The notes under the pieces are model-generated. The model saw only the letters and a list, made by a program, of their open reading frames with translations. It had not been told where the DNA came from and ran no database searches. Below are positions 2,040 through 19,678 of a stretch of 64,000 nucleotides of DNA, one piece after another. A program made the position numbers and the translations under genes. This DNA comes from an uncultured Gammaproteobacteria bacterium (GTDB lineage Bacteria; Patescibacteriota; Microgenomatia; Levybacterales; UBA12049), in assembly GCA_964637955.1 (NCBI GenBank), contig CAZWXQ010000001.1, positions 118,993 through 182,992 on the forward strand, written 5' to 3'. Within the stretch, counting starts at the first letter, position 1. Each line of letters starts with the position of its first letter.

Positions 2040-2075
2040 CTGAGAGTCCCGGTCTCGAACCATTTAATCATTATA
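2040..2075. repeat. 36-bp direct repeat copy 1 (ctgagagtcccggtctcgaaccatttaatcattata); candidate left att site of integrated element
   Basis: 35/36 nt identical to 16767-16802 in same orientation; lies in non-coding gap after clpC-like gene. Confidence 0.6.
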
Positions 2076-2142: not shown

Positions 2143-2221
2143 CTCAGATTGTATCAGTTTATGGCTAAATGAGACATGTAAGACATTTAAAAATAGTTTC
2201 TAAATCCTTTGAATTTGGTTA

Positions 2222-2256
2222 TTGACATATACCCTTATGGGGTATACGATATTGAA
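2222..2256 (+). promoter_or_regulatory. csoR promoter with embedded CsoR-type operator: -35 TTGACA (2222-2227), GC-tract palindrome TATACCC-N5-GGGTATA (2228-2246) overlapping spacer/-10 (TACGAT 2245-2250); start codon 7 nt after the -10 (leaderless-like)
   Basis: Palindrome matches the known CsoR operator architecture (e.g. B. subtilis copZA operator ATACCC...GGGGTAT); consensus -35 hexamer. Confidence 0.6.
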
Positions 2257-2529
2257 ATGAAAACACATTACGAAGATGCCAAAGAAAATGCGCAAAAAAG
2301 ATTAAACATCATTAAGGGTCAAATAGAAGGTCTTCAGAAGATGGTTGAGAATGATGAATATTGTATGGATTTATTAAACCAAAGCCTAGCAATACAGAAC
2401 TCCCTAAAAAGCTTAGATGCAGTTCTTTTTGAAAGACATCTTAAGACTCATGTTATGCATCAAATGCAAGAAGCCCCAGAAAAAGCCATAGAAGAAGTTT
2501 TAACTTTATTCAAAAAAGTAGATAAATAA
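2257..2529 (+). CDS. csoR: CsoR/RcnR-family copper-sensing transcriptional repressor (Cys-His-Cys ligand set present: YCMD...HLKTHV... )
   Basis: Protein aligns by eye to CsoR (RLxxIxGQIxGLQKMVENDxYCxDLLxQ). The true start is likely the ATG at 2257, because the upstream part of the 2209 ORF is the promoter/operator. Confidence 0.8.
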   Translation: MKTHYEDAKENAQKRLNIIKGQIEGLQKMVENDEYCMDLLNQSLAIQNSLKSLDAVLFERHLKTHVMHQMQEAPEKAIEEVLTLFKKVDK

Positions 2530-2539
2530 GGAAAATTAA

Positions 2540-4828: not shown

Positions 4829-5853
4829 ATTTAGGATTAATATTCTTAACAGGTTTAACTATAGGAGGACTCACATGTCTAGCGGTTCAAGGTGGCCTTT
4901 TGGCTTCAGTTATCGCATCTAGAGAAAAAGAAGGTATCGAAAAAAAAGGAAAAGTTGATAGAATATTCCCAACTCTAGCTTTTCTTTTAGCCAAACTTTT
5001 TGCATATACTACGCTTGGCCTTGTTCTTGGAGCACTAGGATCATTTATAAGTTTAACATCTCAAGTTCAATCTTTTATTCAATTAATGGCTGGAGTTTAT
5101 ATGATAATAATTGCATTAAATTTACTTGATGTTCATCCGATTTTTCGTTATGCAGTAATCCAGCCACCTAGATTTTTAACTAAAAGAATAAGAAATCAAT
5201 CTAAAAGCTCTGATATATTTGCTCCGGCTATGTTGGGTTTAATGACCATATTTATTCCCTGTGGTACTACCCTTGCTATGGAAGCATTAGTCATAAGTAC
5301 TGCAAGCCCTATTAAGGGCGCATTGATAATGGCTACTTTTGTACTTGGGACATTTCCGATGTTTTTTGGAATTGGATATGTTACTTCTCTGCTTGGCGAA
5401 AAATTTAAAGACAATTTCTTAAGAATTGCAGCGGTATTATTATTTTTCTTAGGATTTCTATCAATATATGGCGGAATGGTGGCATTAGGTGTACCAATAT
5501 CAGTCTCTAAAGTTACAGCGTTATACAAAGTTAATTCTAATAATAGTTCTGGAAATATGTCTGTTGCTTATCCTCCTGTAAAAAATGGTTTTCAGGAAAT
5601 ATTAATTAATGTAAGTAGTAGTGGCTACACTCCGAATAATATAATTCTTAAGGCTGGTGTTCCCACCAAGCTAAATTTAAGGACCAGTAATGCGTATTCA
5701 TGTGCAATTGCATTTAGAATTCCATCTCTTAAGATGGGTGTTAATTTAAAACCTGACGGATTACAAACCTTAGAGCTGCCAAAGCTTGCTAAAGGTGACT
5801 ATTCATTTAATTGTTCTATGGGAATGTATACGGGGGTGATTAAAGTCTTATGA
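4825..5853 (+). CDS. Polytopic membrane protein (Cys-containing TM helices) with C-terminal cupredoxin_1-like putative Cu-binding domain (…KAGVPTKLNL…YSFNCSMGMYTGVIKV)
   Basis: Hydrophobic N-terminal two thirds; C-terminal ~100 aa resemble the Pfam Cupredoxin_1 pattern (C…CxMGM); start overlaps copA stop (ATGA coupling). Confidence 0.55.
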   Translation: MNLGLIFLTGLTIGGLTCLAVQGGLLASVIASREKEGIEKKGKVDRIFPTLAFLLAKLFAYTTLGLVLGALGSFISLTSQVQSFIQLMAGVYMIIIALNLLDVHPIFRYAVIQPPRFLTKRIRNQSKSSDIFAPAMLGLMTIFIPCGTTLAMEALVISTASPIKGALIMATFVLGTFPMFFGIGYVTSLLGEKFKDNFLRIAAVLLFFLGFLSIYGGMVALGVPISVSKVTALYKVNSNNSSGNMSVAYPPVKNGFQEILINVSSSGYTPNNIILKAGVPTKLNLRTSNAYSCAIAFRIPSLKMGVNLKPDGLQTLELPKLAKGDYSFNCSMGMYTGVIKVL

Positions 5854-6065
5854 AGAAAATAGTATTAGATATTCATGGAATGCACTGTAATAGTTGTGCT
5901 ATGAATATTGATTTTGATCTGGAAGATCTAGAAGGAATAAAAGAATCTAAAACAAGCTATGCAAAACAAAAATGTGAAGTAGAGTTTGATGAAGAGAACA
6001 TCTCTGAGAAAGAAATATTAAAGCAAATAAAGGAAACTGGATATGACGCTAGTTTAGCTAATTAA
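5850..6065 (+). CDS. copZ: CopZ-like heavy-metal-associated (HMA) copper chaperone, MHCNSC metal-binding motif
   Basis: 71-aa ORF with GMxCxxC ferredoxin-like HMA signature. Confidence 0.8.
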   Translation: MKKIVLDIHGMHCNSCAMNIDFDLEDLEGIKESKTSYAKQKCEVEFDEENISEKEILKQIKETGYDASLAN

Positions 6066-6067
6066 AC

Positions 6068-6583
6068 ATGAAAAGATTATTAGTAGTAATAGGTTCAATT
6101 ATATTTGTCATTCTAATTATTTTATTTGGATATAAGATCTACAGTAAAGTAACAGTTCCAAAGAAGGTCCACTATCACGCAGGTTTCATAGTTTTCAAAG
6201 ACAATAAGAAAATAAACTTCTCAGATTTTAAATATATGTATGAAAAGCCATGCACTATTAATGGAAAAGAGAATGAAGAAAGCGAAAATGAAAAATTAGA
6301 AAAAGCACATCTTCATGATAATGTTGGCGATGTCGTACATATTGAAAAATCTGGAGCTAAGTGGGGAGATTTATTTACAAATATTAAATATCCAATAGAT
6401 AAAGATGCAATTATTTATATAAACGGTAAGGAGATTAAAAACTTCCAAAAACTTTCCATTAAACCTTATGATTCCTTGGTTATGTTCATTGGGAGTAACA
6501 ATGTAAACGAGGATATAAAACAGGCACTTACGCAAAAATACATAGAAGAAATGGGAAGTAAGAGTAAAACTTGTGGTGACTAG
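6068..6583 (+). CDS. Membrane-anchored hypothetical protein with His-containing motifs (HYHAGF, HLHDNVGDVVH); part of copper cluster
   Basis: N-terminal TM helix, no recognisable family; operon position. Confidence 0.35.
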   Translation: MKRLLVVIGSIIFVILIILFGYKIYSKVTVPKKVHYHAGFIVFKDNKKINFSDFKYMYEKPCTINGKENEESENEKLEKAHLHDNVGDVVHIEKSGAKWGDLFTNIKYPIDKDAIIYINGKEIKNFQKLSIKPYDSLVMFIGSNNVNEDIKQALTQKYIEEMGSKSKTCGD

Positions 6584-6599
6584 TAAAGGAGGTGATTGA

Positions 6600-7046
6600 A
6601 TGAAAAAAGAATATTTATATGGATTAATAGGATTATTGGGAGGAATAATAATTGCATTTGTGTTTTCAGCGTCAATTGTTAAAAGCAATAATACAAATAT
6701 GATGAAAATGATGGGAATTTACGCCGTAAAAGATAATGATGATCAAGCGAATATGCCGGTTAAGCAGCACATGATGACTAGCGGAAATATGATGGGAAAT
6801 GATGAAGGCAATTCAATGACAATGAATGATATGGTTTCTGGATTAAATGGAAAAACAGGAGATGCTTTTGACAAGGCATTTATTGCAGAAATGATTCCAC
6901 ATCATCAAGGCGCAATTGATATGGCAAAACTTGTTGAAGAGAATGCAAAACATCAAGAGCTTAAAGATCTTGCTAAAGACATAATTACTGCACAGACAAA
7001 TGAAATTAAGCAGATGAGGCAGTGGCAAGCAGCTTGGGGATATTAA
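6600..7046 (+). CDS. DUF305-family protein with N-terminal TM helix and Met-rich (MMKMMG, MMTSGNMMGN, SMTMNDM) putative Cu(I)-binding region
   Basis: C-terminal half matches DUF305 signature (EMIPHHQGAIDMA...); Met-rich motifs typical of periplasmic copper binders; SD aaaggagg upstream. Confidence 0.6.
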   Translation: MKKEYLYGLIGLLGGIIIAFVFSASIVKSNNTNMMKMMGIYAVKDNDDQANMPVKQHMMTSGNMMGNDEGNSMTMNDMVSGLNGKTGDAFDKAFIAEMIPHHQGAIDMAKLVEENAKHQELKDLAKDIITAQTNEIKQMRQWQAAWGY

Positions 7047-7064
7047 TTCTTTTCTAGCAAATCT

Positions 7065-7090: not shown

Positions 7091-7140
7091 ACTTAAGTTT
7101 AATAGCAGTCTTAATGCTAACCTGTCATATAACTTGAATT

Positions 7141-7983
7141 CTACGACGCAGGATTTTCTAGGCTTTTAGAATACTTATTGAATCTGGTAAATTCAGTCGG
7201 ATTATAAGCATTATATATTTGTAAAAAGATTTGAAGTGTTGCGCAATAGCAAATATAGCTAACCGCTAAAATTCTCTCCGCGTCATCTGGTTTTGAATCA
7301 ATATCTAAAAAAGGCTCACGTGCTGATGCAGGGCCTCTCATATATCTTGTGAGTCCAGGCATCGTTGAATGAACTGAGTCAGAAAAATATGGATAAAATA
7401 ATGTATAAAACTTTTCCGCACTGTTATTTTCAGAAAATTTTCCAATTTTTTTAAGATGAGCGTCTATTGCGATTGTTCTGTCAAATAAAGTTGGTAGTTT
7501 GTTAACATTTTTATCTTTATATCGCTTTCTATCTTTGCTTAATAATTCAGAATTCTCTTTAATGAATATTTCCCAGTCGCCGGCTTTCTTAATTGTCCCA
7601 AATTCCATATTCCAAGTAGGATATTTATCCCAGAGTCTTTTGTGTCTTTTTGCAAATTCATTGGATTGCATGATTAGATCAGATAAAAACAATCTTGCTT
7701 TATCTTCGGATCTACTCGAATATATAAATCTTATATTTAGCCAAATTTCGAACTGCGATCTTAACAAGGATTCTCCTGGCTTTTCATAAGTAGGTGAAGA
7801 TCCCATGAGTTTTAAAATACTCTCCGAATAGCTTTGTGAGGCGCCCATCATAAAATATAAGATTCTTTTTCTTACTCTTACTCTTTTTAGATCTAAAGGG
7901 ATAGAGCTTATCTTTTTAAATCCATATACTAACGCCTCATGATATTCGTTAATTAATTCTTTTTGTTTTTCATTAAATTCCAT
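7141..7983 (-). CDS. Hypothetical protein (280 aa), no confident family assignment
   Basis: Long ORF with coding-like composition; first gene of phage-like module. Confidence 0.4.
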   Translation of the reverse strand: MEFNEKQKELINEYHEALVYGFKKISSIPLDLKRVRVRKRILYFMMGASQSYSESILKLMGSSPTYEKPGESLLRSQFEIWLNIRFIYSSRSEDKARLFLSDLIMQSNEFAKRHKRLWDKYPTWNMEFGTIKKAGDWEIFIKENSELLSKDRKRYKDKNVNKLPTLFDRTIAIDAHLKKIGKFSENNSAEKFYTLFYPYFSDSVHSTMPGLTRYMRGPASAREPFLDIDSKPDDAERILAVSYICYCATLQIFLQIYNAYNPTEFTRFNKYSKSLENPAS

Positions 7984-8050
7984 AATATTGCCAATGCAAA
8001 ATATAAATTTCTCGCCATAAAAAGTTCTCGTTATTTAATTGGTCTAATTT

Positions 8051-8278
8051 TTATCCTCTTGGTGGAAATGGATCATTTCCGTAAGTCCATTCAGTGCGAA
8101 ATTGACCACCTACTCCTTGAATTAGAATCTGTGATAAGGTTCCAGCAGGTAAACCACCAACATGTTGTTTTGCAGCTTTTATTGCTTCTGCCTGAGTAGA
8201 ATAAAAACCTTCATTGCAATGTTCGCATTGTACCTTCCATTGATTTCCATGGGATAAAACATATACTTTTTGTCTCAT
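8051..8278 (-). CDS. DUF2188-family small protein
   Basis: Matches DUF2188 pattern (…hGnqWkV…AeAikaAkq…G…ndpfP). Confidence 0.5.
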   Translation of the reverse strand: MRQKVYVLSHGNQWKVQCEHCNEGFYSTQAEAIKAAKQHVGGLPAGTLSQILIQGVGGQFRTEWTYGNDPFPPRG

Positions 8279-8340
8279 TTATTTCTCACCTCCTTTGACC
8301 CCCTCTAAGAGAAATATAAAAGAGAAGGGTACTTTTTGAA

Positions 8341-8592
8341 TTATGCATTTTTCTTCCTTCTGTTATAGGGAGACTTATTTGTGGGATGCAGAGAAAGATT
8401 TAACTCATGAGCTTTCGAATATATAGCATTTGGAGATCTTCCTAGCTCATAAGCAATTAAAGGAGTTGGTTTATTTCCTGTTATTGATTTTCTAAGCCTA
8501 GCTTCTTGTGAATCTGTCCACTGTTTGCCGTTATTTATTGGTGTTTTAGCCACTTTGATCACCTGCCTTATGAAATTTGCAATGAATAGCAA
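8341..8592 (-). CDS. Small hypothetical protein divergent from lexA (TTG start implied); possible HTH-like
   Basis: ORF only; start codon at 8590-8592 is TTG on minus strand; no internal Met. Confidence 0.3.
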   Translation of the reverse strand: MLFIANFIRQVIKVAKTPINNGKQWTDSQEARLRKSITGNKPTPLIAYELGRSPNAIYSKAHELNLSLHPTNKSPYNRRKKNA

Positions 8593-8643
8593 ATTTTCAT
8601 ATAATTAAGTTAATGTTCAGTATAGCACTATAATTTTGTGCTA
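8573..8643. promoter_or_regulatory. lexA-divergent control region with two palindromes: AAATTTGC-N8-GCAAATTT (8573-8596) and TAGCAC-tataatttt-GTGCTA (8623-8643, embracing a TATAAT hexamer)
   Basis: Inverted repeats read from sequence; positioned over candidate -10 elements of lexA promoter, consistent with autoregulatory operator. Confidence 0.4.
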
Positions 8644-8657
8644 GTCAATACTTATTT

Positions 8658-9263
8658 ATGCTAACACCACGACAAAAAGAAATTTTAGATTTTATTAAAG
8701 AATATGTAGCCAAAAATGGCTATGCTCCTACTCTTAGCGAAATCAAACAAAAATTTCAATTTCGATCAAATTCAGCTGCACATCAACATGTGGCAGCTCT
8801 TCAAAGAAAAGGATTTTTAAAAAAATTACCTTTCCAAACTAGATCTATTTCCTTATTTCAGGAGACAGATGCCATGAAGGAGATTCCCCTAGTAGGAAGA
8901 ATTGCCTTGGGAGAGCCAATAGAATCTTTTAATGCACAGGAAACAATAAACGTACCGGATATGCTGGTTTCAAAAAGCGGACAATATTATGCTTTAGAAG
9001 CAAGAGGCAACAGCATGAATGATGATGGAATTCTAAATGGCGATCTAATTATTGTTAGGCAAACTAGTTATGCTGAAAATGGAGATATAGTTGTTGCATT
9101 AGTTCCTGATGGTGGAGCAACCCTAAAAAGGTTTTATAATCTAGGTAATAAAATTGAACTGAGGCCTAAGTCTCTGGATTCAGAGTTTATGTCCAAATTT
9201 TATCCATATGGAGAAGTTGAGGTGCAAGGGATATTTTCTGGATTAATAAGGAGAGAATTATAA
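8658..9263 (+). CDS. lexA: LexA-family repressor (N-terminal winged HTH, C-terminal S24 peptidase with Ser in GNSM and Lys in LKRF); putative autocleavage site reads Leu-Gly (IALGEP) rather than canonical Ala-Gly
   Basis: Domain order and catalytic dyad motifs present in translation. Confidence 0.8.
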   Translation: MLTPRQKEILDFIKEYVAKNGYAPTLSEIKQKFQFRSNSAAHQHVAALQRKGFLKKLPFQTRSISLFQETDAMKEIPLVGRIALGEPIESFNAQETINVPDMLVSKSGQYYALEARGNSMNDDGILNGDLIIVRQTSYAENGDIVVALVPDGGATLKRFYNLGNKIELRPKSLDSEFMSKFYPYGEVEVQGIFSGLIRREL

Positions 9264-9919
9264 TGCCAAAATTAAATCAAGAATCTTCTTTGGTGATTAG
9301 CTACAGTAATTCAATTGAGATATTTCCACCCGAATTTTTTGATAACTTAACAGCAATTAATAAACAGATGGAACCCCTAATGGAATCCATACGCAAAATG
9401 AATGAGAGCACGTTATTTGTAATTCAGAAATCTTTTGAAGACATAGATAAGAATATAGGACAGATATTTGCAGTTCAGATGAAATTAGTAAATTTCGCAA
9501 ATATATTTATTAGACCTAGTTTCCCACCTTCACAAATTGTAGATGTTGAACCTACTGAGATTACTCCTTCGCTGCTTCCCACCTCGAGGGTTTTGGCTAT
9601 AGTAGGTAAATTCGAAAATTTTAACATTGGAATCTCTATAGAAGGGAAATTCTATTATGGAGAAAAGCAAATAATTGGATTAACTTTAGGATCAAATCAT
9701 GGGAAATTCTTAAAAATGCTCCTCGAGTCAGATTTTAATTATGTATCTGATGAATATGCATTAAGCATTTTAAATCCTTCAGATAAAGAAAAAGGTATAG
9801 GATTTATTAGAGACGACCTTATCAAGGTTCTAAGAAATAAAAATACCTTAAATGTGCAATTATTTAGAGACAGGAAGCAGGGATATCGACTTATTTCCAT
9901 ACAACCTTTAACCAATTAG
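9263..9919 (+). CDS. Hypothetical protein (218 aa) translationally coupled to lexA (ATAATG overlap); C-terminus has OmpR-like wHTH flavour (…GYRL)
   Basis: ORF with coupling; no confident homology. Confidence 0.35.
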   Translation: MPKLNQESSLVISYSNSIEIFPPEFFDNLTAINKQMEPLMESIRKMNESTLFVIQKSFEDIDKNIGQIFAVQMKLVNFANIFIRPSFPPSQIVDVEPTEITPSLLPTSRVLAIVGKFENFNIGISIEGKFYYGEKQIIGLTLGSNHGKFLKMLLESDFNYVSDEYALSILNPSDKEKGIGFIRDDLIKVLRNKNTLNVQLFRDRKQGYRLISIQPLTN

Positions 9920-9993
9920 CTCCTGATCTTTTCCTGGATTTTTCCTGACAATTTTCAGTTTTTAATCTTCCAAGATTATCCTATTCTCTAACT

Positions 9994-11349
9994 ATGGCAC
10001 AAGATTTGAAAATATCTCAAATAAAGATAAATGAACTTAACCCTGCTGAATATAACCCCAGGAAATGGGACGAAACCTCTATTGCTCAACTTACCGAAAG
10101 CATTAAGAGATTTGGATTTGTAGATCCCATAATCGTAAACGGCGCTGAGAGCAGGAGAAACGTGGTTATAGGCGGACATTTTCGTCTGAAAGTCGCAAGG
10201 GATCTAGGCTTTACGGAAATTCCAGTTGTATATATTAATATACCTGAAATTGAAAAAGAAAAAGAGTTAAATCTTCGTTTAAATAAAAACACAGGTGAGT
10301 GGGATTATGAATTACTTGCTTCATTTGATGAATCAATACTTAACGATATAGGTTTTAACTCTGAAGAATTAGATGAAATTTTCAATTTTGATGATAATCC
10401 AGATGAATTCGATTTACAAAAAGAGCTTCAGAAATTGCAGATTAATAAAATTGAGATACAAAAAGGTGATGTCTGGGCTTTAGGTGAAAGTAAGCTTATG
10501 TGTGGTGATTCGACTTTTGAACAGGATATCCTAAAACTCATGGATGGGGAGAAAGCAGCTATGTGTTTTACAGATCCACCTTATATATTAGATTACCTTC
10601 ATGGAAAAAAGAAAAACGGAAAACCGGCTACAGGATTTGGTGCAAAAAGAGACAGAAGATATCTTGAAACCGATGTTCTCCCATCAAATTTTACAGAGTT
10701 GTGGATGGCTAATATTGCAAAAATTCAGAATGAGCATTTTTCAATAATAGTTTATGAGAATTGGAAGAATATAAGAACCATTTGGGATGAGATGGAAAAG
10801 TATTGGAAAGTTAAAAATATGCTTGTTTGGCATTTACCTAATAGGCACCAGGGTTTCTCAGCTAAGTATAAGTTCTTTTCAAAGCATGATATAGCAATGG
10901 TGGGTGCATCGCCAAACACAGATGTTCAATTTAATGCAGATAATGAAAAAGATGGTTTGCAAGAAGAATATGAAACCGCGCTATATGCAATTTCTGGCAA
11001 ACCACATTGGGAAGGTTATCAAAGAGGAAGGAAAAATCAGCCAACAGATTTTATTGAATATGTTGCTTCGGACGAAAAGCATTCAGGGCAAGGAATTATT
11101 TTTGGAACAAAACCAATCGAGATATTAATCCCATATATAAAAATGTTAACTAAAAGAGGAGATTTGATAATTGAACCTTTTGGAGGATCAGGATCAACTT
11201 TGATAGCTTCAGAAAAGATGAAACGACGATGTTTCATTATGGAAAAATCTCCAGTATATGCTGAAGTGATTAAAAAGCGATGGGAAAACTTAACAGGTCA
11301 GAAAGGAGTGAGGATTGCATGTGGGATAAAATCGAAAAAAGACAATTAA
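9994..11349 (+). CDS. ParB-like nuclease domain fused to beta-class N6-adenine/N4-cytosine DNA methyltransferase (motif IV DPPY precedes motif I EPFGGSGST)
   Basis: N-terminal ParB/Srx-like motifs (…GGHFRLKVARDLG…); MTase motifs in beta-class order; typical phage/plasmid architecture. Confidence 0.8.
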   Translation: MAQDLKISQIKINELNPAEYNPRKWDETSIAQLTESIKRFGFVDPIIVNGAESRRNVVIGGHFRLKVARDLGFTEIPVVYINIPEIEKEKELNLRLNKNTGEWDYELLASFDESILNDIGFNSEELDEIFNFDDNPDEFDLQKELQKLQINKIEIQKGDVWALGESKLMCGDSTFEQDILKLMDGEKAAMCFTDPPYILDYLHGKKKNGKPATGFGAKRDRRYLETDVLPSNFTELWMANIAKIQNEHFSIIVYENWKNIRTIWDEMEKYWKVKNMLVWHLPNRHQGFSAKYKFFSKHDIAMVGASPNTDVQFNADNEKDGLQEEYETALYAISGKPHWEGYQRGRKNQPTDFIEYVASDEKHSGQGIIFGTKPIEILIPYIKMLTKRGDLIIEPFGGSGSTLIASEKMKRRCFIMEKSPVYAEVIKKRWENLTGQKGVRIACGIKSKKDN

Positions 11350-11744
11350 AAAATAAGCAGGAACTTCTTGAGCAACTTAAGAAAACACCAATAATCCAAA
11401 TAGCCTGTGGTAAATCAAATATAAGTCGTGCCACATACTATCGCTGGCGAAATGAAGATAAAGAGTTTGCTCAGAGCGCTGATAAGGCTATTGATGAAGG
11501 TTCAGCCTTAGTTAATGATATTGCTGAATCTCAATTATTGAATGCGATTAAACAGCAAAATTTAACTGCCATTATTTTCTGGTTGAAGCACCATCACGCA
11601 GCCTACGCCAACAAGATCGAGTTAACAGCAAGATTTAAAGCAGACGAGGAAATACTAACTCCTGAGCAGGAAAAGTTAGTGACTAGAGCACTAAAAATAG
11701 TATCTTTAATGCCTAAGGAGGATAAGGATGTTAACTCAAAATGA
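11319..11744 (+). CDS. Putative phage terminase small subunit (HTH-containing; …ISRATYYRWRNEDKEF…)
   Basis: Position immediately upstream of and overlapping terminase large subunit; RBS aaaggag 10 nt upstream of ATG at 11319; the 11280 start in ORF track overlaps MTase. Confidence 0.5.
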   Translation: MWDKIEKRQLKNKQELLEQLKKTPIIQIACGKSNISRATYYRWRNEDKEFAQSADKAIDEGSALVNDIAESQLLNAIKQQNLTAIIFWLKHHHAAYANKIELTARFKADEEILTPEQEKLVTRALKIVSLMPKEDKDVNSK

Positions 11745-13221
11745 GATTGAAGAATTAAAAAAGAAAAGATCTGTCAGAAGAGCAATTTCAAAAAGAAGTC
11801 ATTACTGGTTTTTTTCAATATATTTAAATCACTACATTAAATATCCATTTGCTCAGTTTCACATTGAAATGTTTCACTTAACGGAAAACGAGGCTTTAAG
11901 GTTGGCAGTTCTTGTTGCATTTAGAGGATCTGGAAAATCCACTCTAATAACTCTTTCCTATGTAATCTGGTCAATAATTGGAGTTCAAAACAAGAAGTTT
12001 GTTTTAGTATTAAGTCAGACTCAGGCTCAGGCGAAACTACATTTAGCCAACATAAAAAGAGAGCTTGAGAGCAACGATTTATTAAAAGCAGATATAGGAC
12101 CGTTTGAAGAAATAAGTGATGAATGGGGTTCAAATTCAATAGTAATTTCAAAATTTGGAGCAAGAATTACTGTTGCTTCAACAGAACAAAGCATAAGAGG
12201 ATTAAGACATGGACAACATCGACCAGATTTAGTGATTTGTGATGATGTTGAAGACTTAAATTCAGTAAAGACTAAAGAAGGAAGAGATAAAACTTTCCAA
12301 TGGCTTGCTGGAGAAGTTTTGCCAATTGGAGATCAAAACACAAAAATAGTAATAGTTGGAAATCTTCTTCATGAAGATAGTCTCTTAATGAAATTAGTTA
12401 ATGCTATAAAAAATGGAAAATTAAATGGAAAATATTTTTCTTATCCTCTACTTGATGATGAAAATAATATTACATGGCCAGAGAAGTTTAAATCAAAGAC
12501 TGATATCGAAAATTTAAGAACTTCTATAGGAACAGATAGCGCATGGTATAGGGAGTATTTGCTTAAAATAATTTCAGATGCTGATAGGCTTGTTCATCCT
12601 GAATGGATTCAATATTACAATGAGATTCCTTCTGAGGAAAATGGGCATTTTATGTATACAGCTACAGGAATTGATCTTGCTATTTCAGAGAAAGAATCAG
12701 CAGATTATACAGCTATGGTGTCGGCCAAAGTTTATGGAAGCGGAGAAAATTTAAAGGTTTACATACTCCCTAACCCTATAAATAAAAGAATGAGTTTTCC
12801 AGAAACATATGAAACGGCTAAAATGATTTCTAAGGAATTAGGAAATGGATATTATACAAAGTTATTTATTGAAGATGTTGGCTATCAAAGAGCTTTAATT
12901 CAGAATTTATCTAATAATAATATTCCTGCTGAAGGGGTTAAGGTTTCTGGTCAGGATAAAAGAAGTAGACTTGCATTAGTTACTCATTTGATAGAGCAAG
13001 GAAAAATTATATTTCCCGATCAAGATAGATGTAGAAATTTGATACTACAACTTACTGGTTTTGGATTAGAAAAACATGATGATCTTGCAGATGCATTTTC
13101 TCTTCTAATGTTAAAAATAATTGAGGAAGATTCAGGAAGTGTAGGCTTCTTCTTTATAGGTGGTTCAGATCTATCTAGTTTTTCAGACTACAGACCCTTG
13201 AGCTTCAATCAGCCATTTTAA
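11728..13221 (+). CDS. Phage terminase large subunit (Walker A RGSGKST, Walker B VICDDVED, C-terminal nuclease region)
   Basis: Motif content and size typical of Terminase_6-type TerL. Confidence 0.8.
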   Translation: MLTQNEIEELKKKRSVRRAISKRSHYWFFSIYLNHYIKYPFAQFHIEMFHLTENEALRLAVLVAFRGSGKSTLITLSYVIWSIIGVQNKKFVLVLSQTQAQAKLHLANIKRELESNDLLKADIGPFEEISDEWGSNSIVISKFGARITVASTEQSIRGLRHGQHRPDLVICDDVEDLNSVKTKEGRDKTFQWLAGEVLPIGDQNTKIVIVGNLLHEDSLLMKLVNAIKNGKLNGKYFSYPLLDDENNITWPEKFKSKTDIENLRTSIGTDSAWYREYLLKIISDADRLVHPEWIQYYNEIPSEENGHFMYTATGIDLAISEKESADYTAMVSAKVYGSGENLKVYILPNPINKRMSFPETYETAKMISKELGNGYYTKLFIEDVGYQRALIQNLSNNNIPAEGVKVSGQDKRSRLALVTHLIEQGKIIFPDQDRCRNLILQLTGFGLEKHDDLADAFSLLMLKIIEEDSGSVGFFFIGGSDLSSFSDYRPLSFNQPF

Positions 13222-13424
13222 AAAAGATCAGATAGTTGAACTTTAAGAGCTTTGGAAATTTTATCAATTGTTTGAACCGGCGGATTACTTATACCCCTTT
13301 CGATTCTGGAAATTGTAGTATAGTGCAGGCCAACTCTATCAGCTAATTCTTCTTGTGACATTTTCTTGTCTCTCCTAGCTTTTCTAATTCTTTTACCTAG
13401 TTTTTCGTTAACTTTATATTTCAC
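13218..13424 (-). CDS. XRE-family HTH transcriptional regulator (Cro/CI-like)
   Basis: …MSQEELADRVGLHYTTISRIERG… canonical HTH_XRE. Confidence 0.8.
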   Translation of the reverse strand: MKYKVNEKLGKRIRKARRDKKMSQEELADRVGLHYTTISRIERGISNPPVQTIDKISKALKVQLSDLF

Positions 13425-13465
13425 TTATTAGTTATAAATTAATGAAAAACAGAAAGTTTGAGTAT

Positions 13466-13557
13466 AGCGTCAGACGCTTTATTTAGCCTTGACTTTATGC
13501 TTAAATATAAGTAATATGCCTTACGTAAGCACGAAATTAATAGAAAGGAGGTGAATT
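13466..13557. promoter_or_regulatory. Divergent control region: 13-bp palindrome AGCGTCaGACGCT (13466-13478), -35 TTGACT (13489-13494) / -10 TAATAT (13512-13517), 10-bp perfect palindrome CTTACGTAAG (13520-13529), RBS aaaggagg (13545-13552)
   Basis: Read from sequence between xre (minus) and ltp-like (plus). Confidence 0.5.
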
Positions 13558-14052
13558 ATGAACTGGATTAAAAAACATAAAATAGTGTCAGGAATTATTG
13601 GAGTTGTCGCATTTTTTATAATAGTTGGAGCTTTAGGTTCAAGCAGTACAACAACTAAATCAGAATCAACTAACTCTACTTCTGTCAAAAGTCAATCAAA
13701 TAATGCTGAACCAACAGCAACAATTGAAAACAAGCAGCCCAATGTTCCAGCGGAATATAAATCAGCACTCAAGAAAGCAACTAGCTATGCGACTATAATG
13801 CATATGTCAAAAAGAGGTGTATATGACCAGTTAGTCTCAGACTATGGTGAAAAGTTTTCGCCAGAAGCTGCACAGTATGCAATTGATAATGTGAAAGCTG
13901 ATTGGAATGCAAATGCTTTAGCTAAAGCAAAGAGCTATCAAGAGCAACAGAGTATGTCACCTGCTGCCATTCAAAATCAATTAATATCTGATTACGGTGA
14001 AAAGTTCACGCAAGCGGAAGCAGATTATGCTATTCAACACCTAAGTAAATAG
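13558..14052 (+). CDS. Ltp-family (host cell surface-exposed lipoprotein-like) protein with N-terminal TM anchor and two tandem Ltp repeats (…QLVSDYGEKFSPEAAQYAI… / …QLISDYGEKFTQAEADYAI…); candidate superinfection-exclusion protein
   Basis: Tandem repeat with conserved D-Y/F-G-E-K-F…A-x-YA motif characteristic of the Ltp superinfection-exclusion family; low-complexity linker. Confidence 0.6.
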   Translation: MNWIKKHKIVSGIIGVVAFFIIVGALGSSSTTTKSESTNSTSVKSQSNNAEPTATIENKQPNVPAEYKSALKKATSYATIMHMSKRGVYDQLVSDYGEKFSPEAAQYAIDNVKADWNANALAKAKSYQEQQSMSPAAIQNQLISDYGEKFTQAEADYAIQHLSK

Positions 14053-14325
14053 CGGGAGTTAGTAGTAGCTAAGCGGTGAAGCAAGAACAAGAAAAACATT
14101 CGATATTAAAATCGCATGTTTTTCTTTGGATTAAATATAGTATTTTAAGCCTAGACTTAATCAAAATCCTGCGGTACTGTGTACTCAAATGAATACAGAG
14201 GCAGGAATACTTAAGCTAATAACTAGATGCGAGAATTACTTCTATAAGTACCTCTTAACACAAGATAAATCATACATAGACAAATACTTTAAAACTTCAA
14301 GTCAACTCAAAAGAAAGGTTAAGAA

Positions 14326-15618
14326 ATGGAAAATGAAATAAAAGCACCCATAGATTACTGTTTGTATGCTCGAAAATCTACAGAAGATGATGAAAGACAA
14401 GCAATGAGTATAGATTCTCAAATTAAAGAGATGTCTGAAATGGCTTTAAAGGAAGAGATATTCATAAAAGAAATCCGACAAGAAAAGCATTCAGCGAAAA
14501 TGTCAGGGCAAAGGCCTGTTTTTAATCAGCTATTAGCAGATATAAAAAGTGGTATGTTTAGGGGAATATTAACTTGGGCGCCTGACAGGTTAAGCAGAAA
14601 TGCAGGAGATTTAGGCGTGCTTGTAGATTTAATGGATCATGGCAAGTTAACTAATATTAAAACATATACTCAGGCCTTCACAAATAGTCCTAGCGATAAG
14701 TTTTTACTCATGATTCTTTGCTCTCAAGCAAAACTCGAAAATGATCAGAAAGGAATAAATGTTAAAAGAGGGATAAGAGCCAAATGTCAGATGGGATGGA
14801 GACCTGGTGTTCCGCCAACAGGTTATTTTAATAGAACAATGAATGGGGTTAAAGATATAATCCCCGATCCTCAACGAGCTCCATTTATAACCGAAATGTT
14901 TCAAAGAGTTGCCGATGGACAAAGTGGTTGGGATATAAAAAGATGGTTTGATAAATCTGGAATGACTACTAGATCTGGAAAAAAAGTTTACTTAGGCAAT
15001 TTATATCTTATGCTGAAAAATTCATTTTATTATGGAGAATTTGAATACCCTATTAATAGTGGTAATTGGTATAAGGGAAAACATAAACCATTAATAACAA
15101 AAATTCTATTTGATAAAGTACAAAATCAGCTTATTACTTCAACTAAATCAGATTGGGGCAGTAATATTGCTCCATTCAAAGGATTATTTAGATGCGGAAC
15201 ATGTGGGAAAAAACTAATTGGCGAAGAAAAAATCAGAAAAAGAAAATGGGGAGCCCCCATAAGACATGTTTATTACCACTGTGCCCGAAACCTTAGTGAT
15301 TGCTCAGAGCCATATATAAGTGAGGAAAAATTAATAAAACAAATTCTTAGATATATTAATTTCATGAGTATCGCGCATCCTAATTTCCTCAAGCTAACAG
15401 ACCCTTTACATATAAGTTTGTTGTCATATAGCTTAATTAGAAATGAAGTACTTTATGAGCAAGATATTAATCCAAATGATCAAAAATCCGATCCGGTAAA
15501 TTTTAGTAGATATATTCTGAATAAAGGGTCCGTTGATGAAAAAAGAGACTTAGTTATGTCTTTAGGGAAGCAGATGTATATTAAAAATAAGTATTTGGTT
15601 TCCTCTGTATCTGAATAA
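14326..15618 (+). CDS. Large serine recombinase (resolvase catalytic domain YARKSTEDDERQ…, recombinase domain, zinc beta-ribbon CGTCGKK…HVYYHCAR)
   Basis: Domain organisation from translation. Confidence 0.85.
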   Translation: MENEIKAPIDYCLYARKSTEDDERQAMSIDSQIKEMSEMALKEEIFIKEIRQEKHSAKMSGQRPVFNQLLADIKSGMFRGILTWAPDRLSRNAGDLGVLVDLMDHGKLTNIKTYTQAFTNSPSDKFLLMILCSQAKLENDQKGINVKRGIRAKCQMGWRPGVPPTGYFNRTMNGVKDIIPDPQRAPFITEMFQRVADGQSGWDIKRWFDKSGMTTRSGKKVYLGNLYLMLKNSFYYGEFEYPINSGNWYKGKHKPLITKILFDKVQNQLITSTKSDWGSNIAPFKGLFRCGTCGKKLIGEEKIRKRKWGAPIRHVYYHCARNLSDCSEPYISEEKLIKQILRYINFMSIAHPNFLKLTDPLHISLLSYSLIRNEVLYEQDINPNDQKSDPVNFSRYILNKGSVDEKRDLVMSLGKQMYIKNKYLVSSVSE

Positions 15619-15684
15619 TTCATAAAATATTATCCTTAATTTGCCTCAATTCAATCTATAGGATAAAATGCTGCATATAAATTT

Positions 15685-16710
15685 ATGAATCATTTTGAAA
15701 GCAGCAATCTGGATAAAATTTTCTATCTTAATCCCAGTAAAAATCATTTAATAGGATCAAGAGAGTCGACCGTACTTGAATTTAAGGAAAATTTTTCTTT
15801 TGCAAATCTAGCGGATTACGCTAAAGTAATGGCTTCTTTTGCAAACAAAGATGGAGGCTATATAGTTTTTGGTTTAGAAGATAATCCTAGAAAGATTGTT
15901 GGAATCGATAGGAATACTTTCGATACTATTGATCAAGCCAAATTAACTGAGGGATTAAATGATATATTTCAGCCTGCAATGGAATGGGATATTGCAGTTC
16001 ATGATTGGAATGGATTTTCATTTGGAATAATTTATGTATTTAAGACTGTTCAAAAGCCTATCATTGCAAGAAAAAATTATGGTTCCGAAATTAAGGAAGG
16101 TGAAATTTATTATAGATATAGAGCTAGATCGGAGAAAATTAAATATTCTGAGTTGCGTCATTTACTTGATGAGCAAAAGGAGTTGACCAATGAAGCATGG
16201 AGAAAAGTTATAGAAAAGGCTTCATCGATCGATCCTAGAAATGTAGCTATGTTAGATACGATAACAGGTGAATTAACAGGAGATGGAGGAACAGTAGTAA
16301 TAGATGAGTCATTAATATCTAAATTGAAATTTATAAGGGATGGAGATTTTAATCAAAAAGATGGTGCTCCAACTCTTAAGCTTATAGGTGATCTTCAGGC
16401 TGTTCCTGTAGCAGCTGTAAAGAGTAAAAAAGTACTTATTGGGGAAGATATTTATAAATTTAGAGCTTCGCAGGTTGCAAAAGAAGTTCAGTCAGGTATA
16501 GCTAAAAATTTTAGTATTCAGCTACATACTAAGGCATGGAAAATGTATGAATCGAGACCTAAAGAGAAAAATTCGGGTTTTAAAAATGAATTTTCAGAAT
16601 TAAAGCAAGCCGAAAACGATTATCGATATTCTCAAGCATGGATCGATTTTCTGATAAATAAATTAAAAACTGATCAGGAATATCAAAAATTATTAGATTT
16701 CAAAATATAA
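15685..16710 (+). CDS. AlbA_2 (Schlafen-like putative DNA-binding, PF04326-like) domain protein (…EsTvLEFKEnfS…FANkDGGYIVFGLEDNpRKIVGI…)
   Basis: N-terminal motif set matches AlbA_2 domain; C-terminal region unassigned. Confidence 0.6.
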   Translation: MNHFESSNLDKIFYLNPSKNHLIGSRESTVLEFKENFSFANLADYAKVMASFANKDGGYIVFGLEDNPRKIVGIDRNTFDTIDQAKLTEGLNDIFQPAMEWDIAVHDWNGFSFGIIYVFKTVQKPIIARKNYGSEIKEGEIYYRYRARSEKIKYSELRHLLDEQKELTNEAWRKVIEKASSIDPRNVAMLDTITGELTGDGGTVVIDESLISKLKFIRDGDFNQKDGAPTLKLIGDLQAVPVAAVKSKKVLIGEDIYKFRASQVAKEVQSGIAKNFSIQLHTKAWKMYESRPKEKNSGFKNEFSELKQAENDYRYSQAWIDFLINKLKTDQEYQKLLDFKI

Positions 16711-16766
16711 TTTAAATTTTAGAGAGCTGAATGGCGAGGGTACGGTGGGGCGATAGTAATAGTGTG

Positions 16767-16802
16767 CTGAGAGTACCGGTCTCGAACCATTTAATCATTA
16801 TA
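16767..16802. repeat. 36-bp direct repeat copy 2 (ctgagagtaccggtctcgaaccatttaatcattata); candidate right att site
   Basis: 35/36 identity with 2040-2075. Confidence 0.6.
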
Positions 16803-17570: not shown

Positions 17571-17576
17571 AGTATT

Positions 17577-19675: not shown

Positions 19676-19678
19676 AAA

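What the first reader, a model, noticed from the sequence alone, without database searches (positions are those of the whole stretch)
7141..16710. Phage-like module with terminase small+large subunits but no capsid, portal or tail genes: satellite-like or defective prophage
DUF2188, the LexA-like repressor, ParB-N6/N4 methyltransferase, TerS, TerL, XRE repressor with palindromic operators, Ltp-like superinfection exclusion protein, large serine recombinase and AlbA_2 protein sit in 9.5 kb with no recognisable virion structural genes. This resembles phage-inducible chromosomal island / satellite logic (packaging hijack plus immunity) or a heavily decayed prophage. In a small AT-rich (possibly CPR-like) genome either would be little-studied.
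Basis: partly seen in the sequence, partly recalled or inferred. Interest (0 to 1): 0.6.

Follow-up and report, generated by a model that had tools for sequence, protein, structure and literature searches.

The report
Capsid-less terminase island in CPR bacterium
A 14.7-kb mobile island in a Levybacteria-like (CPR) genome carries an intact phage DNA-packaging enzyme but no virus-shell genes, and because the same gene set recurs in dozens of CPR genomes it is probably an undescribed kind of phage-hijacking satellite that also carries copper-resistance and defence genes.

Summary

It is not a decayed prophage. About 65 loci from CPR/Patescibacteria genomes and IMG/VR contigs share the same ordered core: an unknown protein, a ParB-methyltransferase, TerS, TerL and a large serine recombinase (LSR). 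Most also carry a LexA-like or XRE repressor and an Ltp/DUF4352 surface protein. Cargo varies between loci: copper resistance, efflux pumps, restriction and other defence systems.

- TerL keeps all catalytic motifs and is under strong purifying selection (dN/dS 0.01-0.06).
- The nearest true phages have TerL only 23-37% identical to the window TerL, and in them a portal gene follows TerL directly. No family locus has a portal.
- In the window, a 36-nt direct repeat (2040/16767) bounds a 14.7-kb element that includes the copper operon. It lies inside a 25.7-kb insertion that breaks a conserved ClpB-NusA neighbourhood.

Best reading (inferred, about 0.55): a helper-dependent satellite that supplies its own complete terminase. 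I found no description of such a family. The helper phage, excision and packaging remain undemonstrated.

The parts
2040..2075 (.). Left copy of the 36-nt direct repeat (putative attL), 54 nt after the ClpB stop codon
   Evidence: 35/36 identical to 16767-16802. These are the only two copies in the window even when 12 mismatches are allowed. The sequence on either side of each copy is unrelated.
2209..7046 (+). Cargo: a copper-resistance module. CsoR 2209-2529, CopA P-type ATPase 2540-4828, DsbD_2/cupredoxin 4825-5853, HMA chaperone 5850-6065, unknown 6068-6583, DUF305 6600-7046.
   Evidence: Pfam. The module lies inside the direct repeats. CsoR, CopA, DsbD or DUF305 homologues lie next to the same core (between TerL and the LSR position, or just past the LSR) in L009, L012, L024, L031, L064 and L065.
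7141..7983 (-). DUF5677 protein. An accessory gene, with no counterpart in the other family loci.
   Evidence: Pfam 2e-9. It joins no cluster with other loci.
8051..8278 (-). DUF2188 small protein. It recurs next to the LexA-like gene in other family members.
   Evidence: Pfam 8e-8. PADLOC candidate PDC-S16, 8e-12. Cluster C40 in L013, L029 and L030.
8341..8592 (-). Small protein of 70-83 aa, transcribed divergently from the LexA-like gene. Possibly a regulator.
   Evidence: phrog_323, 2e-7. Homologues beside LexA in L008, L012 and L033.
8573..8643 (.). Divergent promoter region with two palindromes: AAATTTGCAAT/ATAGCAAATTT over the -35 box, and TAGCAC-N9-GTGCTA. These are candidate operators.
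   Evidence: Function not tested.
8658..9263 (+). LexA-type repressor (winged HTH plus S24 self-cleaving peptidase). It is the first gene of the packaging operon.
   Evidence: Pfam. The Ser and Lys of the S24 dyad are conserved, but the cleavage-site dipeptide is Leu-Gly rather than Ala/Cys-Gly. A LexA-like gene adjoins the core in 13 family loci.
9263..9919 (+). Unknown 218-aa protein. Its start codon overlaps the LexA stop codon. Its position matches the unknown proteins C8 and C48 of other members.
   Evidence: No hit in Pfam, PHROGs or PADLOC. The only homologue is in L008. The AlphaFold model is unusable, pLDDT 38.
9994..11349 (+). ParB-N domain fused to an N6/N4 DNA methyltransferase (core gene)
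   Evidence: Pfam and PHROGs. Present in 67 of 71 loci, directly upstream of TerS. dN/dS 0.03-0.05.
11280..11744 (+). TerS-like small terminase subunit (core gene). It probably starts at 11319. It overlaps ParB-MTase and TerL.
   Evidence: PHROG TerS families 3e-8 to 1e-4, and PF13022. In 54 loci it is always immediately 5' of TerL. dN/dS 0.02-0.10. Fold search was uninformative.
11728..13221 (+). TerL large terminase subunit, intact (core gene)
   Evidence: phrog_38 3e-79 and Terminase_6C. PDB profile hits to T7 maturase B and to a chain the depositors named 'Terminase, large subunit' (8dgc), about 1e-5. Invariant G67-S68-K70-T72, D172-D173/E175, D316, D451-D452-D455. dN/dS 0.012-0.055.
13218..13424 (-). 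XRE/Cro-CI type HTH regulator, convergent with TerL
   Evidence: Pfam HTH_3, 9e-19. At the same position in 20 family loci.
13558..14052 (+). Membrane-anchored protein with two Ltp repeats, of the superinfection-exclusion type. A hairpin follows at 14089-14126.
   Evidence: Pfam 2e-46 and phrog_4980 1e-59. In 15 other loci a DUF4352 surface protein occupies this position. Hairpin.
14326..15618 (+). Large serine recombinase (core gene), the presumed integrase/excisionase
   Evidence: Resolvase, Recombinase and Zn_ribbon_recom. Best PDB match is SPbeta SprA/YokA, 1e-10. An LSR lies downstream of TerL on the same strand in 47 of 65 loci.
15685..16710 (+). AlbA_2/Schlafen-like protein. Accessory, possibly a defence gene.
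   Evidence: Pfam 4e-18. PADLOC candidates PDC-S19 (1e-15) and PDC-S50.
16767..16802 (.). Right copy of the 36-nt direct repeat (putative attR)
   Evidence: One short-read contig of the same strain ends at 16813.

Best explanation
Window 2040-16802 is an intact integrated member of a widespread element family that I could not find described in the literature. The hosts are CPR/Patescibacteria.

The conserved core of the family is an unknown protein, a ParB-methyltransferase, TerS, TerL and a large serine recombinase (LSR). Most members also have a LexA-like and/or XRE repressor and an Ltp or DUF4352 surface protein. Cargo is variable.

Shown here:
- The architecture is recurrent.
- The genes are intact and under purifying selection.
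- Virion genes are absent, and replication genes are absent from the conserved core.
- The element sits as an insertion, flanked by direct repeats.

Inferred mechanism:
1. The LSR integrated the element at its att site. Here that site is intergenic, just after clpB. In other members it is often the 3' end of a tRNA gene, most often tRNA-Ser.
2. The LexA-type repressor keeps the operon LexA-u218-ParB/MTase-TerS-TerL silent.
3. DNA damage or helper-phage induction derepresses the operon.
4. The element's own TerS recognises a pac-type site on element DNA.
5. Its own TerL cuts there and docks on the portal of procapsids made by a co-resident helper phage. Element DNA is then packaged by the headful mechanism. 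The substrate would be concatemers, or the chromosome in situ in the manner of lateral transduction, which would also carry flanking DNA.
6. In a new cell the LSR integrates the DNA.
7. The Ltp-type surface protein and the defence or metal-resistance cargo benefit the host and exclude competing phages.

In short, it works like a phage satellite that brings the whole packaging motor but no shell.
For: - Recurrence: 31 loci from genome assemblies and about 38 IMG/VR loci in which TerL is at least 40% identical all show the same gene order.
- LSR linkage: 47 of 65 loci have the LSR downstream on the same strand, and in 22 it begins within about 220 nt of the TerL stop codon.
- Family size: more than 150 clusters at the 50% identity level score better than 1e-95, and 533 score 1e-30 or better. 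At least 120 clusters at the 90% level are 61% or more identical to the window TerL.
- Function retained: the catalytic residues are invariant, and dN/dS is 0.012-0.055.
- No virion genes: none were detected by Pfam or PHROGs in the window. No PHROG family matched by two or more of 144 non-redundant accessory proteins of the family is annotated as a head or tail protein. A portal profile finds a portal next to TerL in 9 of the 13 more distantly related loci (L039, L076-L079, L081, L084-L086), but a portal in no family locus. Positive control: the proteins tested from L076 and L039 (the ORFs following TerL) hit PHROG portal, head-morphogenesis, major-head (L076) and head-protease (L039) families.
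- Mobility: the 36-nt direct repeat. ClpB and NusA are adjacent in 13 related loci but 25.7 kb apart here. Direct repeats of 19-26 nt bracket the elements in L020, L029 and L033, and two of them overlap tRNA 3' ends. In 12 loci a tRNA gene faces the LSR.
- Size: the repeat-bounded elements are 9.6-17 kb, which is the size range of known satellites.
- Cargo is of the kind satellites and islands carry: MmeI-type and type-I-like restriction systems, RelA/SpoT, PLD-SNF2, copper resistance, efflux pumps.
- The last 22 residues of TerL are the least conserved part (0.23 against 0.45-0.80 elsewhere). Five loci carry two intact tandem TerL genes; in the one pair I aligned (L046) they differ mostly at that tail. 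This would fit adaptation to different helper portals.
Against: - No helper phage was identified.
- No excised circle, attP junction, empty site with the same flanks, or capsid-protected DNA was observed.
- The closest TerL in an isolated phage is 29% identical or less. There is therefore no sign of a shared packaging specificity with any known phage.
- The TerS assignment rests on modest profile scores, and the fold search was uninformative.
- A 36-nt repeat is longer than the short common cores I recall for characterised LSR att sites (from memory; not checked here).
- The cleavage site of the window's LexA-like protein is Leu-Gly, not Ala/Cys-Gly, so SOS induction of this copy is uncertain.
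- The island's right-hand 10.9 kb (16803-27703) is unexplained.
- Because the PHROG sweep only reports the top families, a single structural gene in an individual locus cannot be excluded.
Confidence: 0.55

Rival explanations
1. Defence or cargo island in which the terminase module acts against phages. TerS and TerL would compete for, or mis-cut, the DNA or procapsids of infecting phages (packaging interference). The island itself would move only rarely, through the LSR together with natural transformation or another vehicle.
For: The cargo is dominated by defence and exclusion genes: Ltp/DUF4352, restriction systems, RelA/SpoT, AlbA_2. There is no replication module in the core. Known satellites also interfere with helper packaging (abstract of 10.1101/2024.04.22.590561, PMC9618062).
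Against: PADLOC has no model that matches TerS or TerL. A complete, strongly constrained ATPase-plus-nuclease motor with a cognate TerS is more than interference needs. The tight operon linkage of TerL to the integrase suggests that packaging and integration serve one life cycle. This reading overlaps the best explanation rather than excluding it.
Confidence: 0.2
2. Split or domesticated virus-like system, similar to a gene transfer agent. Head and tail genes at another chromosomal locus would supply the particles, and this locus would supply the packaging enzyme.
For: TerL is complete and strongly conserved. No structural genes lie within 10 kb in any locus, so if particles exist they are encoded elsewhere.
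Against: The module is not at a fixed chromosomal position. It is flanked by an LSR, direct repeats, tRNA genes and different cargo in each genome. It breaks a conserved ClpB-NusA neighbourhood. It also occurs in several copies per genome. These are features of a mobile parasite, not of a vertically inherited domesticated locus.
Confidence: 0.08
3. Heavily decayed (defective) prophage. A deletion would have removed everything from the portal gene through the lysis genes.
For: A phage with the same ParB-MTase, TerS, TerL order followed by portal and head genes exists (L039), as do phages with TerL followed directly by a portal (e.g. L076). The module therefore has a phage origin.
Against: The identical 'deletion' would have to be present in about 65 loci across several CPR phyla. 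All core genes are intact and dN/dS is about 0.01-0.06 although dS exceeds 1. The family's TerL proteins are a median 48% identical to one another. Against the TerL of true phages the median is 22% and the maximum 35%.
Confidence: 0.03
4. An autonomous small virus of a new kind, whose capsid and portal are hidden among the unknown ORFs.
For: One unknown protein (u218, C8 or C48) always precedes the ParB-MTase gene. Its fold could not be predicted.
Against: Terminase-driven packaging needs a portal and an HK97-type shell. Minimal members have only one unknown ORF of 130-270 aa, and that ORF is not conserved across the family.
Confidence: 0.04

Closest known systems
Capsid-forming PICIs (cf-PICIs)
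   Same: They are chromosomal islands that carry both terS and terL. Their TerL proteins form lineages well separated from phage TerL, and the authors interpret them as neither recent phage derivatives nor degraded prophages.
   Different: cf-PICIs also encode capsid, protease, portal, head-tail connectors and HNH, and they steal only tails. Per SatelliteFinder their core set, shared with PICI, also includes an integrase, a regulator and a primase-replicase. Here there are no head genes at all, the integrase is an LSR, there is no primase, and a ParB-methyltransferase takes the place of HNH.
Classical PICIs/SaPIs and the minimalist PICMIs, VEIMEs and PICI-like tycheposons
   Same: They are small integrative islands with a repressor, a packaging-redirecting TerS and accessory or defence cargo, and they lack most or all virion genes. 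PICMIs and VEIMEs are reported to package concatemers.
   Different: According to the papers consulted, these carry TerS (or a capsid-related gene) and the helper's TerL is presumed to complement them. Integrases in PICI and tycheposons are tyrosine recombinases (from memory for PICI; 910 of 937 tycheposons). Here a complete TerS-plus-TerL holoenzyme is core and the recombinase is an LSR. None of those families is reported from CPR.
PLEs of Vibrio cholerae
   Same: They are satellites that integrate with a large serine recombinase, lack structural genes and manipulate the helper's packaging.
   Different: PLEs replicate with their own replication functions and use the terminase of phage ICP1. 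I found no sequence relationship. The core here is ParB-MTase, TerS and TerL.
LSR prophages and their remnants (SPbeta SprA; the B. subtilis skin element)
   Same: The LSR's closest solved relative is SPbeta SprA/YokA. From my own knowledge, the skin element is an LSR-excised remnant that contains terminase genes.
   Different: Those are single-lineage defective or complete prophages. This is a recurrent, selected, capsid-less architecture.
Phage packaging modules with ParB-MTase, TerS, TerL and portal (for example IMG/VR contig L039)
   Same: The first three genes are in the same order, which points to the probable evolutionary source of the core.
   Different: In the phage, portal, head-morphogenesis and protease genes follow TerL. 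In the family, the LSR or an XRE-plus-cargo segment follows TerL. L039 TerL is 23% identical to the window's.

Membership tests
Tailed-phage prophage (complete or defective) | Portal protein gene, normally adjacent to terL | tested here: not met
   No portal by Pfam or PHROGs in the window. A jackhmmer portal profile hits 9 of the 13 more distantly related loci but no portal in any family locus or in the window.
Tailed-phage prophage (complete or defective) | Major capsid, tail and lysis genes | tested here: not met
   None in the element or its flanks. No PHROG family shared by two or more of 144 accessory proteins of the family is annotated as head or tail. Single occurrences in other loci are not excluded.
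Terminase large subunit (TerL) | N-terminal ASCE ATPase with Walker A and B motifs, plus a C-terminal RNase-H-like nuclease with acidic residues | tested here: met
   phrog_38 3e-79 and Terminase_6C 7e-8. G67-S68-K70-T72, D172-D173-E175, D316 and D451/452/455 are invariant in 12 diverse members. PDB profile hits to T7 maturase B and to a chain named 'Terminase, large subunit' (8dgc).
Terminase small subunit (TerS) | Small DNA-binding (HTH) protein encoded immediately 5' of terL, with a TerS-type oligomerisation fold | tested here: inconclusive
   Four PHROG TerS families score 3e-8 to 1e-4, and PF13022 scores 28.2 bits against a cut-off of 27.9. The position and the overlap with terL are conserved in 54 loci. 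The single-sequence model is all-helical with pLDDT 70, but Foldseek found no significant match.
Large serine recombinase | Resolvase catalytic domain with the active-site Ser, plus a Recombinase domain and a zinc-ribbon domain | tested here: met
   All three Pfam domains are present. The motif YARKST lies near the N-terminus. SPbeta SprA is the best PDB match.
Large serine recombinase | Recombination between attP and attB with a short central crossover | not testable with these tools
   Only direct repeats were seen: 36 nt here, 19-26 nt in L020, L029 and L033. No attP or attB junction was recovered.
PICI / SaPI | Tyrosine integrase at one end | tested here: not met
   The only recombinase is an LSR. 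The same holds across the family.
PICI / SaPI | Primase-replicase module | tested here: not met
   None in the window. It is not among the conserved clusters. A single primase hit occurs among 144 accessory proteins.
cf-PICI | Own capsid, protease, portal, head-tail connectors and HNH, together with terS and terL | tested here: not met
   terS and terL are present. All head genes and HNH are absent from the window.
Phage satellite (functional class) | Helper-phage-dependent encapsidation and transfer | not testable with these tools
   This needs virome read mapping or experiments. Only indirect genomic evidence is available.
LexA/S24 self-cleaving repressor | Winged HTH plus an S24 domain with a Ser-Lys dyad and an Ala/Cys-Gly cleavage site | tested here: inconclusive
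   Both domains are present. The Ser (GNSM) and Lys (TLKR) align with E. coli S119 and K156. The cleavage dipeptide is Leu-Gly in the window, whereas most of the 13 relatives have Ala-Gly or Cys-Gly.
CPR 'ParB-MTase / TerS / TerL / LSR' element family (defined here) | Ordered core of ParB-MTase, TerS, TerL, then an LSR on the same strand, with no virion genes in between | tested here: met
   The window has this order, with XRE and Ltp lying between TerL and the LSR, as in at least 20 other members.

The most novel reading that the evidence does not exclude
CPR bacteria host a phylum-spanning class of phage satellites that use a previously unrecognised piracy strategy. They carry no shell, no tail and no replication genes. 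They do carry the entire DNA-packaging holoenzyme: TerS plus TerL, sometimes two TerLs with different tails that may dock on the portal. This is co-transcribed with a ParB-methyltransferase and a large serine integrase. With it they load themselves, and possibly neighbouring chromosome, into procapsids of unrelated helper phages. That would make them a main vehicle for exchanging defence systems and metal-resistance genes among these ultra-small, episymbiotic bacteria.
Probability: 0.4. Interest if true: 0.85.

Novelty: new variant of a known kind. Interest (0 to 1): 0.72.

Why it matters
- Very little is known about mobile elements and horizontal gene transfer in CPR/Patescibacteria, a large fraction of bacterial diversity with tiny genomes. 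My searches found no paper that reports a phage satellite from them (the only two papers holding both 'Patescibacteria' and 'phage satellite' use each term in passing).
- This family is abundant, with hundreds of clusters in public data. It is found in Microgenomates, Parcubacteria and Saccharibacteria lineages.
- It repeatedly carries restriction and other defence systems, efflux pumps and copper resistance. It is therefore a plausible major gene shuttle in these bacteria.
- A satellite that brings a complete terminase but no capsid would fill a gap between TerS-only PICIs and capsid-forming cf-PICIs. It also raises a testable question: how can a foreign TerL dock on a helper's portal?
- In practice, virus-detection pipelines already file these elements as viral contigs (IMG/VR), apparently because of TerL. 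This inflates counts of CPR 'phages'.
- The LSRs, together with their tRNA-linked att sites, are new candidates for genome-integration tools.

Tried and rejected
- RNA genes at the att site: ARAGORN and Rfam found no tRNA or other RNA gene at the 36-nt repeat.
- Scan of the JGI metagenome collection for the att core: no match, so no attB or attP was recovered.
- Exact-protein look-ups of the flanking genes returned only short contigs of the same strain. One of them stops at 16813, but none shows an empty site.
- The right-flank gene u236 has no homologue at all, so the empty-site test through it failed. The ClpB route worked instead.
- Direct terminal repeats, which would indicate circular contigs, were sought among the IMG/VR family contigs. 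None were found.
- u218 has no Pfam, PHROG or PADLOC hit. jackhmmer links it only to L008, and its AlphaFold model has pLDDT 38, so no fold search was run.
- The TerS model (pLDDT 70) gave no significant Foldseek match in PDB or BFVD.
- PADLOC gave no defence-system assignment for TerS or TerL.
- Ten literature searches and the papers read turned up no description of this architecture.
- Host LexA was considered and rejected: a LexA-like gene travels with the core in 13 loci that have different surroundings.
- A copper operon belonging to the host was considered and judged unlikely. It lies inside the direct repeats and inside the ClpB-NusA insertion, and copper genes accompany the core elsewhere.

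Full report
**1.

- 7141-7983(-): DUF5677.
- 8051-8278(-): DUF2188.
- 8341-8592(-): a small protein, possibly a regulator.
- 8658-9263(+): a full LexA-type repressor with an HTH and an S24 peptidase domain.
- 9263-9919(+): an unknown 218-aa protein.
- 9994-11349(+): a ParB-N/N6-N4 methyltransferase fusion.
- 11280-11744(+): a TerS-like protein.
- 11728-13221(+): TerL (phrog_38, 3e-79).
- 13218-13424(-): an XRE regulator.
- 13558-14052(+): a protein with two Ltp repeats.
- 14326-15618(+): a large serine recombinase (LSR).
- 15685-16710(+): an AlbA_2 protein.

No portal, capsid, tail or lysis gene is present in the region. None is in the left flank (ClpB and a copper operon) or the right flank (orphan genes, a split beta-CASP gene, a metallophosphatase). 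The remaining 36 kb of the window is housekeeping: NusA, IF-2, PNPase, RNase J, FtsK and YceG. The host is a CPR bacterium. The best named matches to its PNPase are Levybacteria/Levyibacteriota and 'Patescibacteria group' at 72-75% identity.

**2. The element is larger than flagged, and it is an insertion**

A 36-nt direct repeat, 35/36 identical, lies at 2040-2075 and 16767-16802. These are the only two copies in the window even when 12 mismatches are allowed. The repeat brackets 14.7 kb that includes the CsoR-CopA-DsbD-HMA-DUF305 copper module as well as the phage-like genes.

In 13 related metagenome loci, ClpB is followed directly by NusA, with a gap of 9 to about 1,400 nt. In the window ClpB ends at 1986 and NusA starts at 27704. 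The whole 25.7-kb interval is therefore inserted or variable DNA. The repeat-bounded element occupies its left 14.7 kb. The right 10.9 kb holds orphan genes and no recombinase, and I cannot explain it.

No tRNA or Rfam RNA lies at the repeat.

**3. It belongs to a large, conserved family and is not a one-off remnant**

The window TerL has thousands of homologues. The top 120 clusters at the 90% identity level are 61-79% identical to it, and many sit on contigs of 0.1-0.9 Mb. An exhaustive search of 1.84 billion cluster representatives gives 533 hits at 1e-30 or better.

I fetched 31 loci from genome assemblies and about 50 from IMG/VR. Every locus in which TerL is at least 40% identical has the same order:
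- a LexA-like gene, with or without DUF2188 and the small protein, in some members;
- an unknown protein (u218, C8 or C48);
- the ParB-methyltransferase, often followed by a second methyltransferase;
- TerS;
- TerL;
- optionally an XRE regulator on the opposite strand, an Ltp or DUF4352 surface protein, and cargo;
- the LSR.

Of 65 loci with TerL, 47 have the LSR downstream on the same strand. The gap runs from -24 to 8,300 nt, and in 22 loci it is within about 220 nt. Three more loci have the LSR at the other end in the opposite orientation. Most of the rest are truncated contigs.

Named hosts include Levyibacteriota, Woesebacteria, Shapirobacteria, Roizmanbacteria, Moraniibacteriota, Paceibacterota, Falkowbacteria and Saccharibacteria. 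Some assembly titles say 'uncultured Gammaproteobacteria'. Proteins at least 90% identical to those occur in Patescibacteria MAGs, so I doubt those labels.

**4. The terminase is functional**

Across 12 members that are 48-77% identical to the window TerL, these residues are invariant: Walker A (G67-S68-K70-T72), Walker B (D172-D173, E175) and the nuclease acidic residues (D316, D451, D452, D455).

Nei-Gojobori dN/dS values for close pairs:

| Gene | dN/dS |
|---|---|
| TerL | 0.012-0.055 |
| TerS | 0.02-0.10 |
| ParB-MTase | 0.03-0.05 |
| LSR | 0.017-0.048 |

Synonymous sites are near saturation (dS about 1-2), so these values are approximate. This is incompatible with a decaying prophage.

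**5. Virion genes are absent across the family, and the methods would have found them**

The nearest true phages in the same scans have TerL 23-37% identical to the window's (L076, L077, L039 and others). In L076 and L039, the ORFs following TerL hit PHROG portal and head-morphogenesis families, plus a major head protein in L076 and a head protease in L039. L039 even has the order ParB-MTase, TerS, TerL, portal, which points to the evolutionary source of the core.

A jackhmmer portal profile recovers a portal next to TerL in 9 of the 13 more distantly related loci. It finds a portal in no family locus and none in the window. The only family-locus hit is a 159-aa minus-strand fragment in L073.

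I also swept 144 non-redundant accessory proteins of at least 200 aa from family loci against PHROGs. No family matched by two or more of them is annotated as a head or tail protein. Because only the top 25 families are listed, single occurrences cannot be excluded.

Family TerLs are a median 48% identical to each other. Against the phage TerLs the median is 22% and the maximum 35%. The best TerL from an isolated phage is 29% identical or less.

**6. Other family features**

- *Integration sites.* L020, L029 and L033 have direct repeats of 24, 19 and 26 nt that bracket 9.6-17 kb around the core. The right-hand repeats of L020 and L029 overlap the 3' ends of tRNA-Ser and tRNA-Gln. In 12 loci a tRNA gene whose 3' end faces the LSR lies 116-1,624 nt after it, and in eight of these it is tRNA-Ser.
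- *Cargo.* Copper resistance occurs in at least seven loci including the window. Other cargo includes MarR/MFS and ABC efflux systems, type-I-like and MmeI-type restriction-modification systems, a PLD-SNF2 protein with an Eco57I-type methylase, a RelA/SpoT-domain protein and DinG-like helicases.
- *Replication.* No replication module is part of the core.
- *Copy number.* Several genomes or contigs carry two elements.
- *TerL tail.* The last 22 residues of TerL are by far the least conserved (0.23 against 0.45-0.80 elsewhere). Five loci carry two intact tandem TerL paralogues; in the one pair I aligned (L046) they differ mainly in that tail.
- *Modularity.* Highly similar ParB-MTase genes (about 70-78% identical to the window's) pair with TerLs only 50-55% identical to it, and the reverse also occurs. 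The modules therefore recombine.

**7. How it most likely works**

The following is shown: an intact, selected terminase holoenzyme with a ParB-methyltransferase and an LSR, in a repeat-bounded insertion without virion or replication genes.

The following is inferred. The LexA-type repressor heads the operon. Its stop codon overlaps the u218 start codon, and promoter-like hexamers with palindromes lie at 8573-8643. It would keep the packaging genes off until DNA damage or helper-phage induction. TerS would then bind a pac-type site on the element. TerL would cut there and dock on procapsids made by a co-resident helper phage, and packaging would proceed by the headful mechanism. The LSR would integrate the DNA in the next cell. 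The Ltp protein and the other cargo would benefit the host.

Because the core has no replicon, the packaging substrate is probably one of two things. It may be concatemers made by helper functions, as reported for PICMIs and VEIMEs. Or it may be the chromosome in situ, as in lateral transduction.

One caveat applies to this copy. The LexA-like cleavage dipeptide is Leu-Gly, whereas most relatives have Ala-Gly or Cys-Gly.

**8. Comparison with known systems**

- cf-PICIs carry terS and terL, but together with capsid, protease, portal, connectors and HNH.
- According to the papers consulted, classical PICIs, PICMIs, VEIMEs and PICI-like tycheposons carry TerS or a capsid-related gene, not a complete TerS-plus-TerL pair.
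- PLEs share the LSR but nothing else.
- The LSR's closest solved relative is SPbeta SprA.

Ten full-text searches found no description of this architecture and no paper that reports a CPR phage satellite. I therefore classify it as a new variant of a known kind (a phage satellite or integrative mobile element). The functional claim is untested.

**9. Verdict**

- 'Decayed prophage' is rejected.
- 'Satellite-like' is the best reading, at about 0.55. The main rival is an island whose terminase serves phage interference rather than its own transfer, at about 0.2.
- Interest is 0.72. This is a widespread, apparently undescribed element class in a poorly understood part of the bacterial tree, and it can be tested directly with existing virome and long-read data.

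Noticed in passing
window 16803-27703: The right-hand 10.9 kb of the ClpB-NusA insertion lies outside the 36-nt repeats and holds no recombinase. It contains orphan genes (the 236-aa protein at 17577-18287 has no homologue in 5.8 billion proteins), a beta-CASP/RMMBL gene that appears split (18333-18521 and 18548-19675), a 991-aa metallophosphatase-like protein, a MazE-PhoU fusion and an adenylosuccinate-lyase-HAD fusion. It may be the remains of earlier insertions at the same hotspot.
   Followed up: partly
window 1990-2075 and 16767-16802 (minus strand): T-loop-like motifs (GGTTCGAGACC, GATTCGAACTC) lie in and beside the 36-nt repeat. ARAGORN and Rfam find no tRNA. Because other family members integrate next to tRNA-Ser or tRNA-Gln, these may be scars of a tRNA 3' end.
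   Followed up: partly
L043, L044, L046, L047, L049 (for example L046:2405-3982 and 3933-5564): Two intact TerL genes lie in tandem within one element. In the one pair I aligned (L046), both keep the Walker and nuclease motifs and they differ most in the C-terminal tail.
   Followed up: partly
proteins P0270, P0272, P0273, P0274, P0280: Some family TerL representatives are 680-720 aa long. By eye, their extra C-terminal segment of about 220 aa resembles a second terminase-type nuclease domain (D...E/D...D motifs). Their genomic context was not examined.
   Followed up: no
L073:7781-8260 (-): A 159-aa ORF immediately after TerL, on the opposite strand, matches the portal/head-morphogenesis profile (E = 4e-18) but has no Pfam hit. 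It is the only trace of a head-related sequence in any family locus.
   Followed up: partly
L024 and L028 (contig CAYRKM010000001.1); IMG/VR contigs 3300032737_000190, 3300014205_009253, 3300033402_000781: Two family elements lie on the same contig, about 14 kb apart on CAYRKM010000001.1 and roughly 5-37 kb apart on the three IMG/VR contigs, which suggests repeated insertion near one another.
   Followed up: no
Genome contigs record titles of L008, L010, L012, L013, L015-L019, L021, L023, L024, L028, L031: Assemblies labelled 'uncultured Gammaproteobacteria', 'Pseudomonadales', 'Eubacteriales' or 'Bacteriovorax' carry the element. A TerL at least 90% identical to one of them occurs in Patescibacteria MAGs, so these taxonomic labels look unreliable.
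   Followed up: partly
window 8658-9263: The LexA-like repressor has Leu-Gly where most of the 13 related copies, and E. coli LexA, have Ala-Gly or Cys-Gly. The Ser-Lys dyad is intact. Self-cleavage may be impaired in this copy.
   Followed up: partly
window 47075-48667: A 530-aa protein with three GerE/LuxR-type HTH domains in tandem, which is an unusual architecture for a regulator.
   Followed up: no
window 57836-57874 / 58661-58699 and 29040-29075 / 32542-32577: Two further direct repeats. One is 39 nt (82% identical), inside the 582-aa ORF at 57290-59038. The other is an AT-rich 36-mer (89% identical) in the intergenic regions before the IF-2 and PNPase genes.
   Followed up: no
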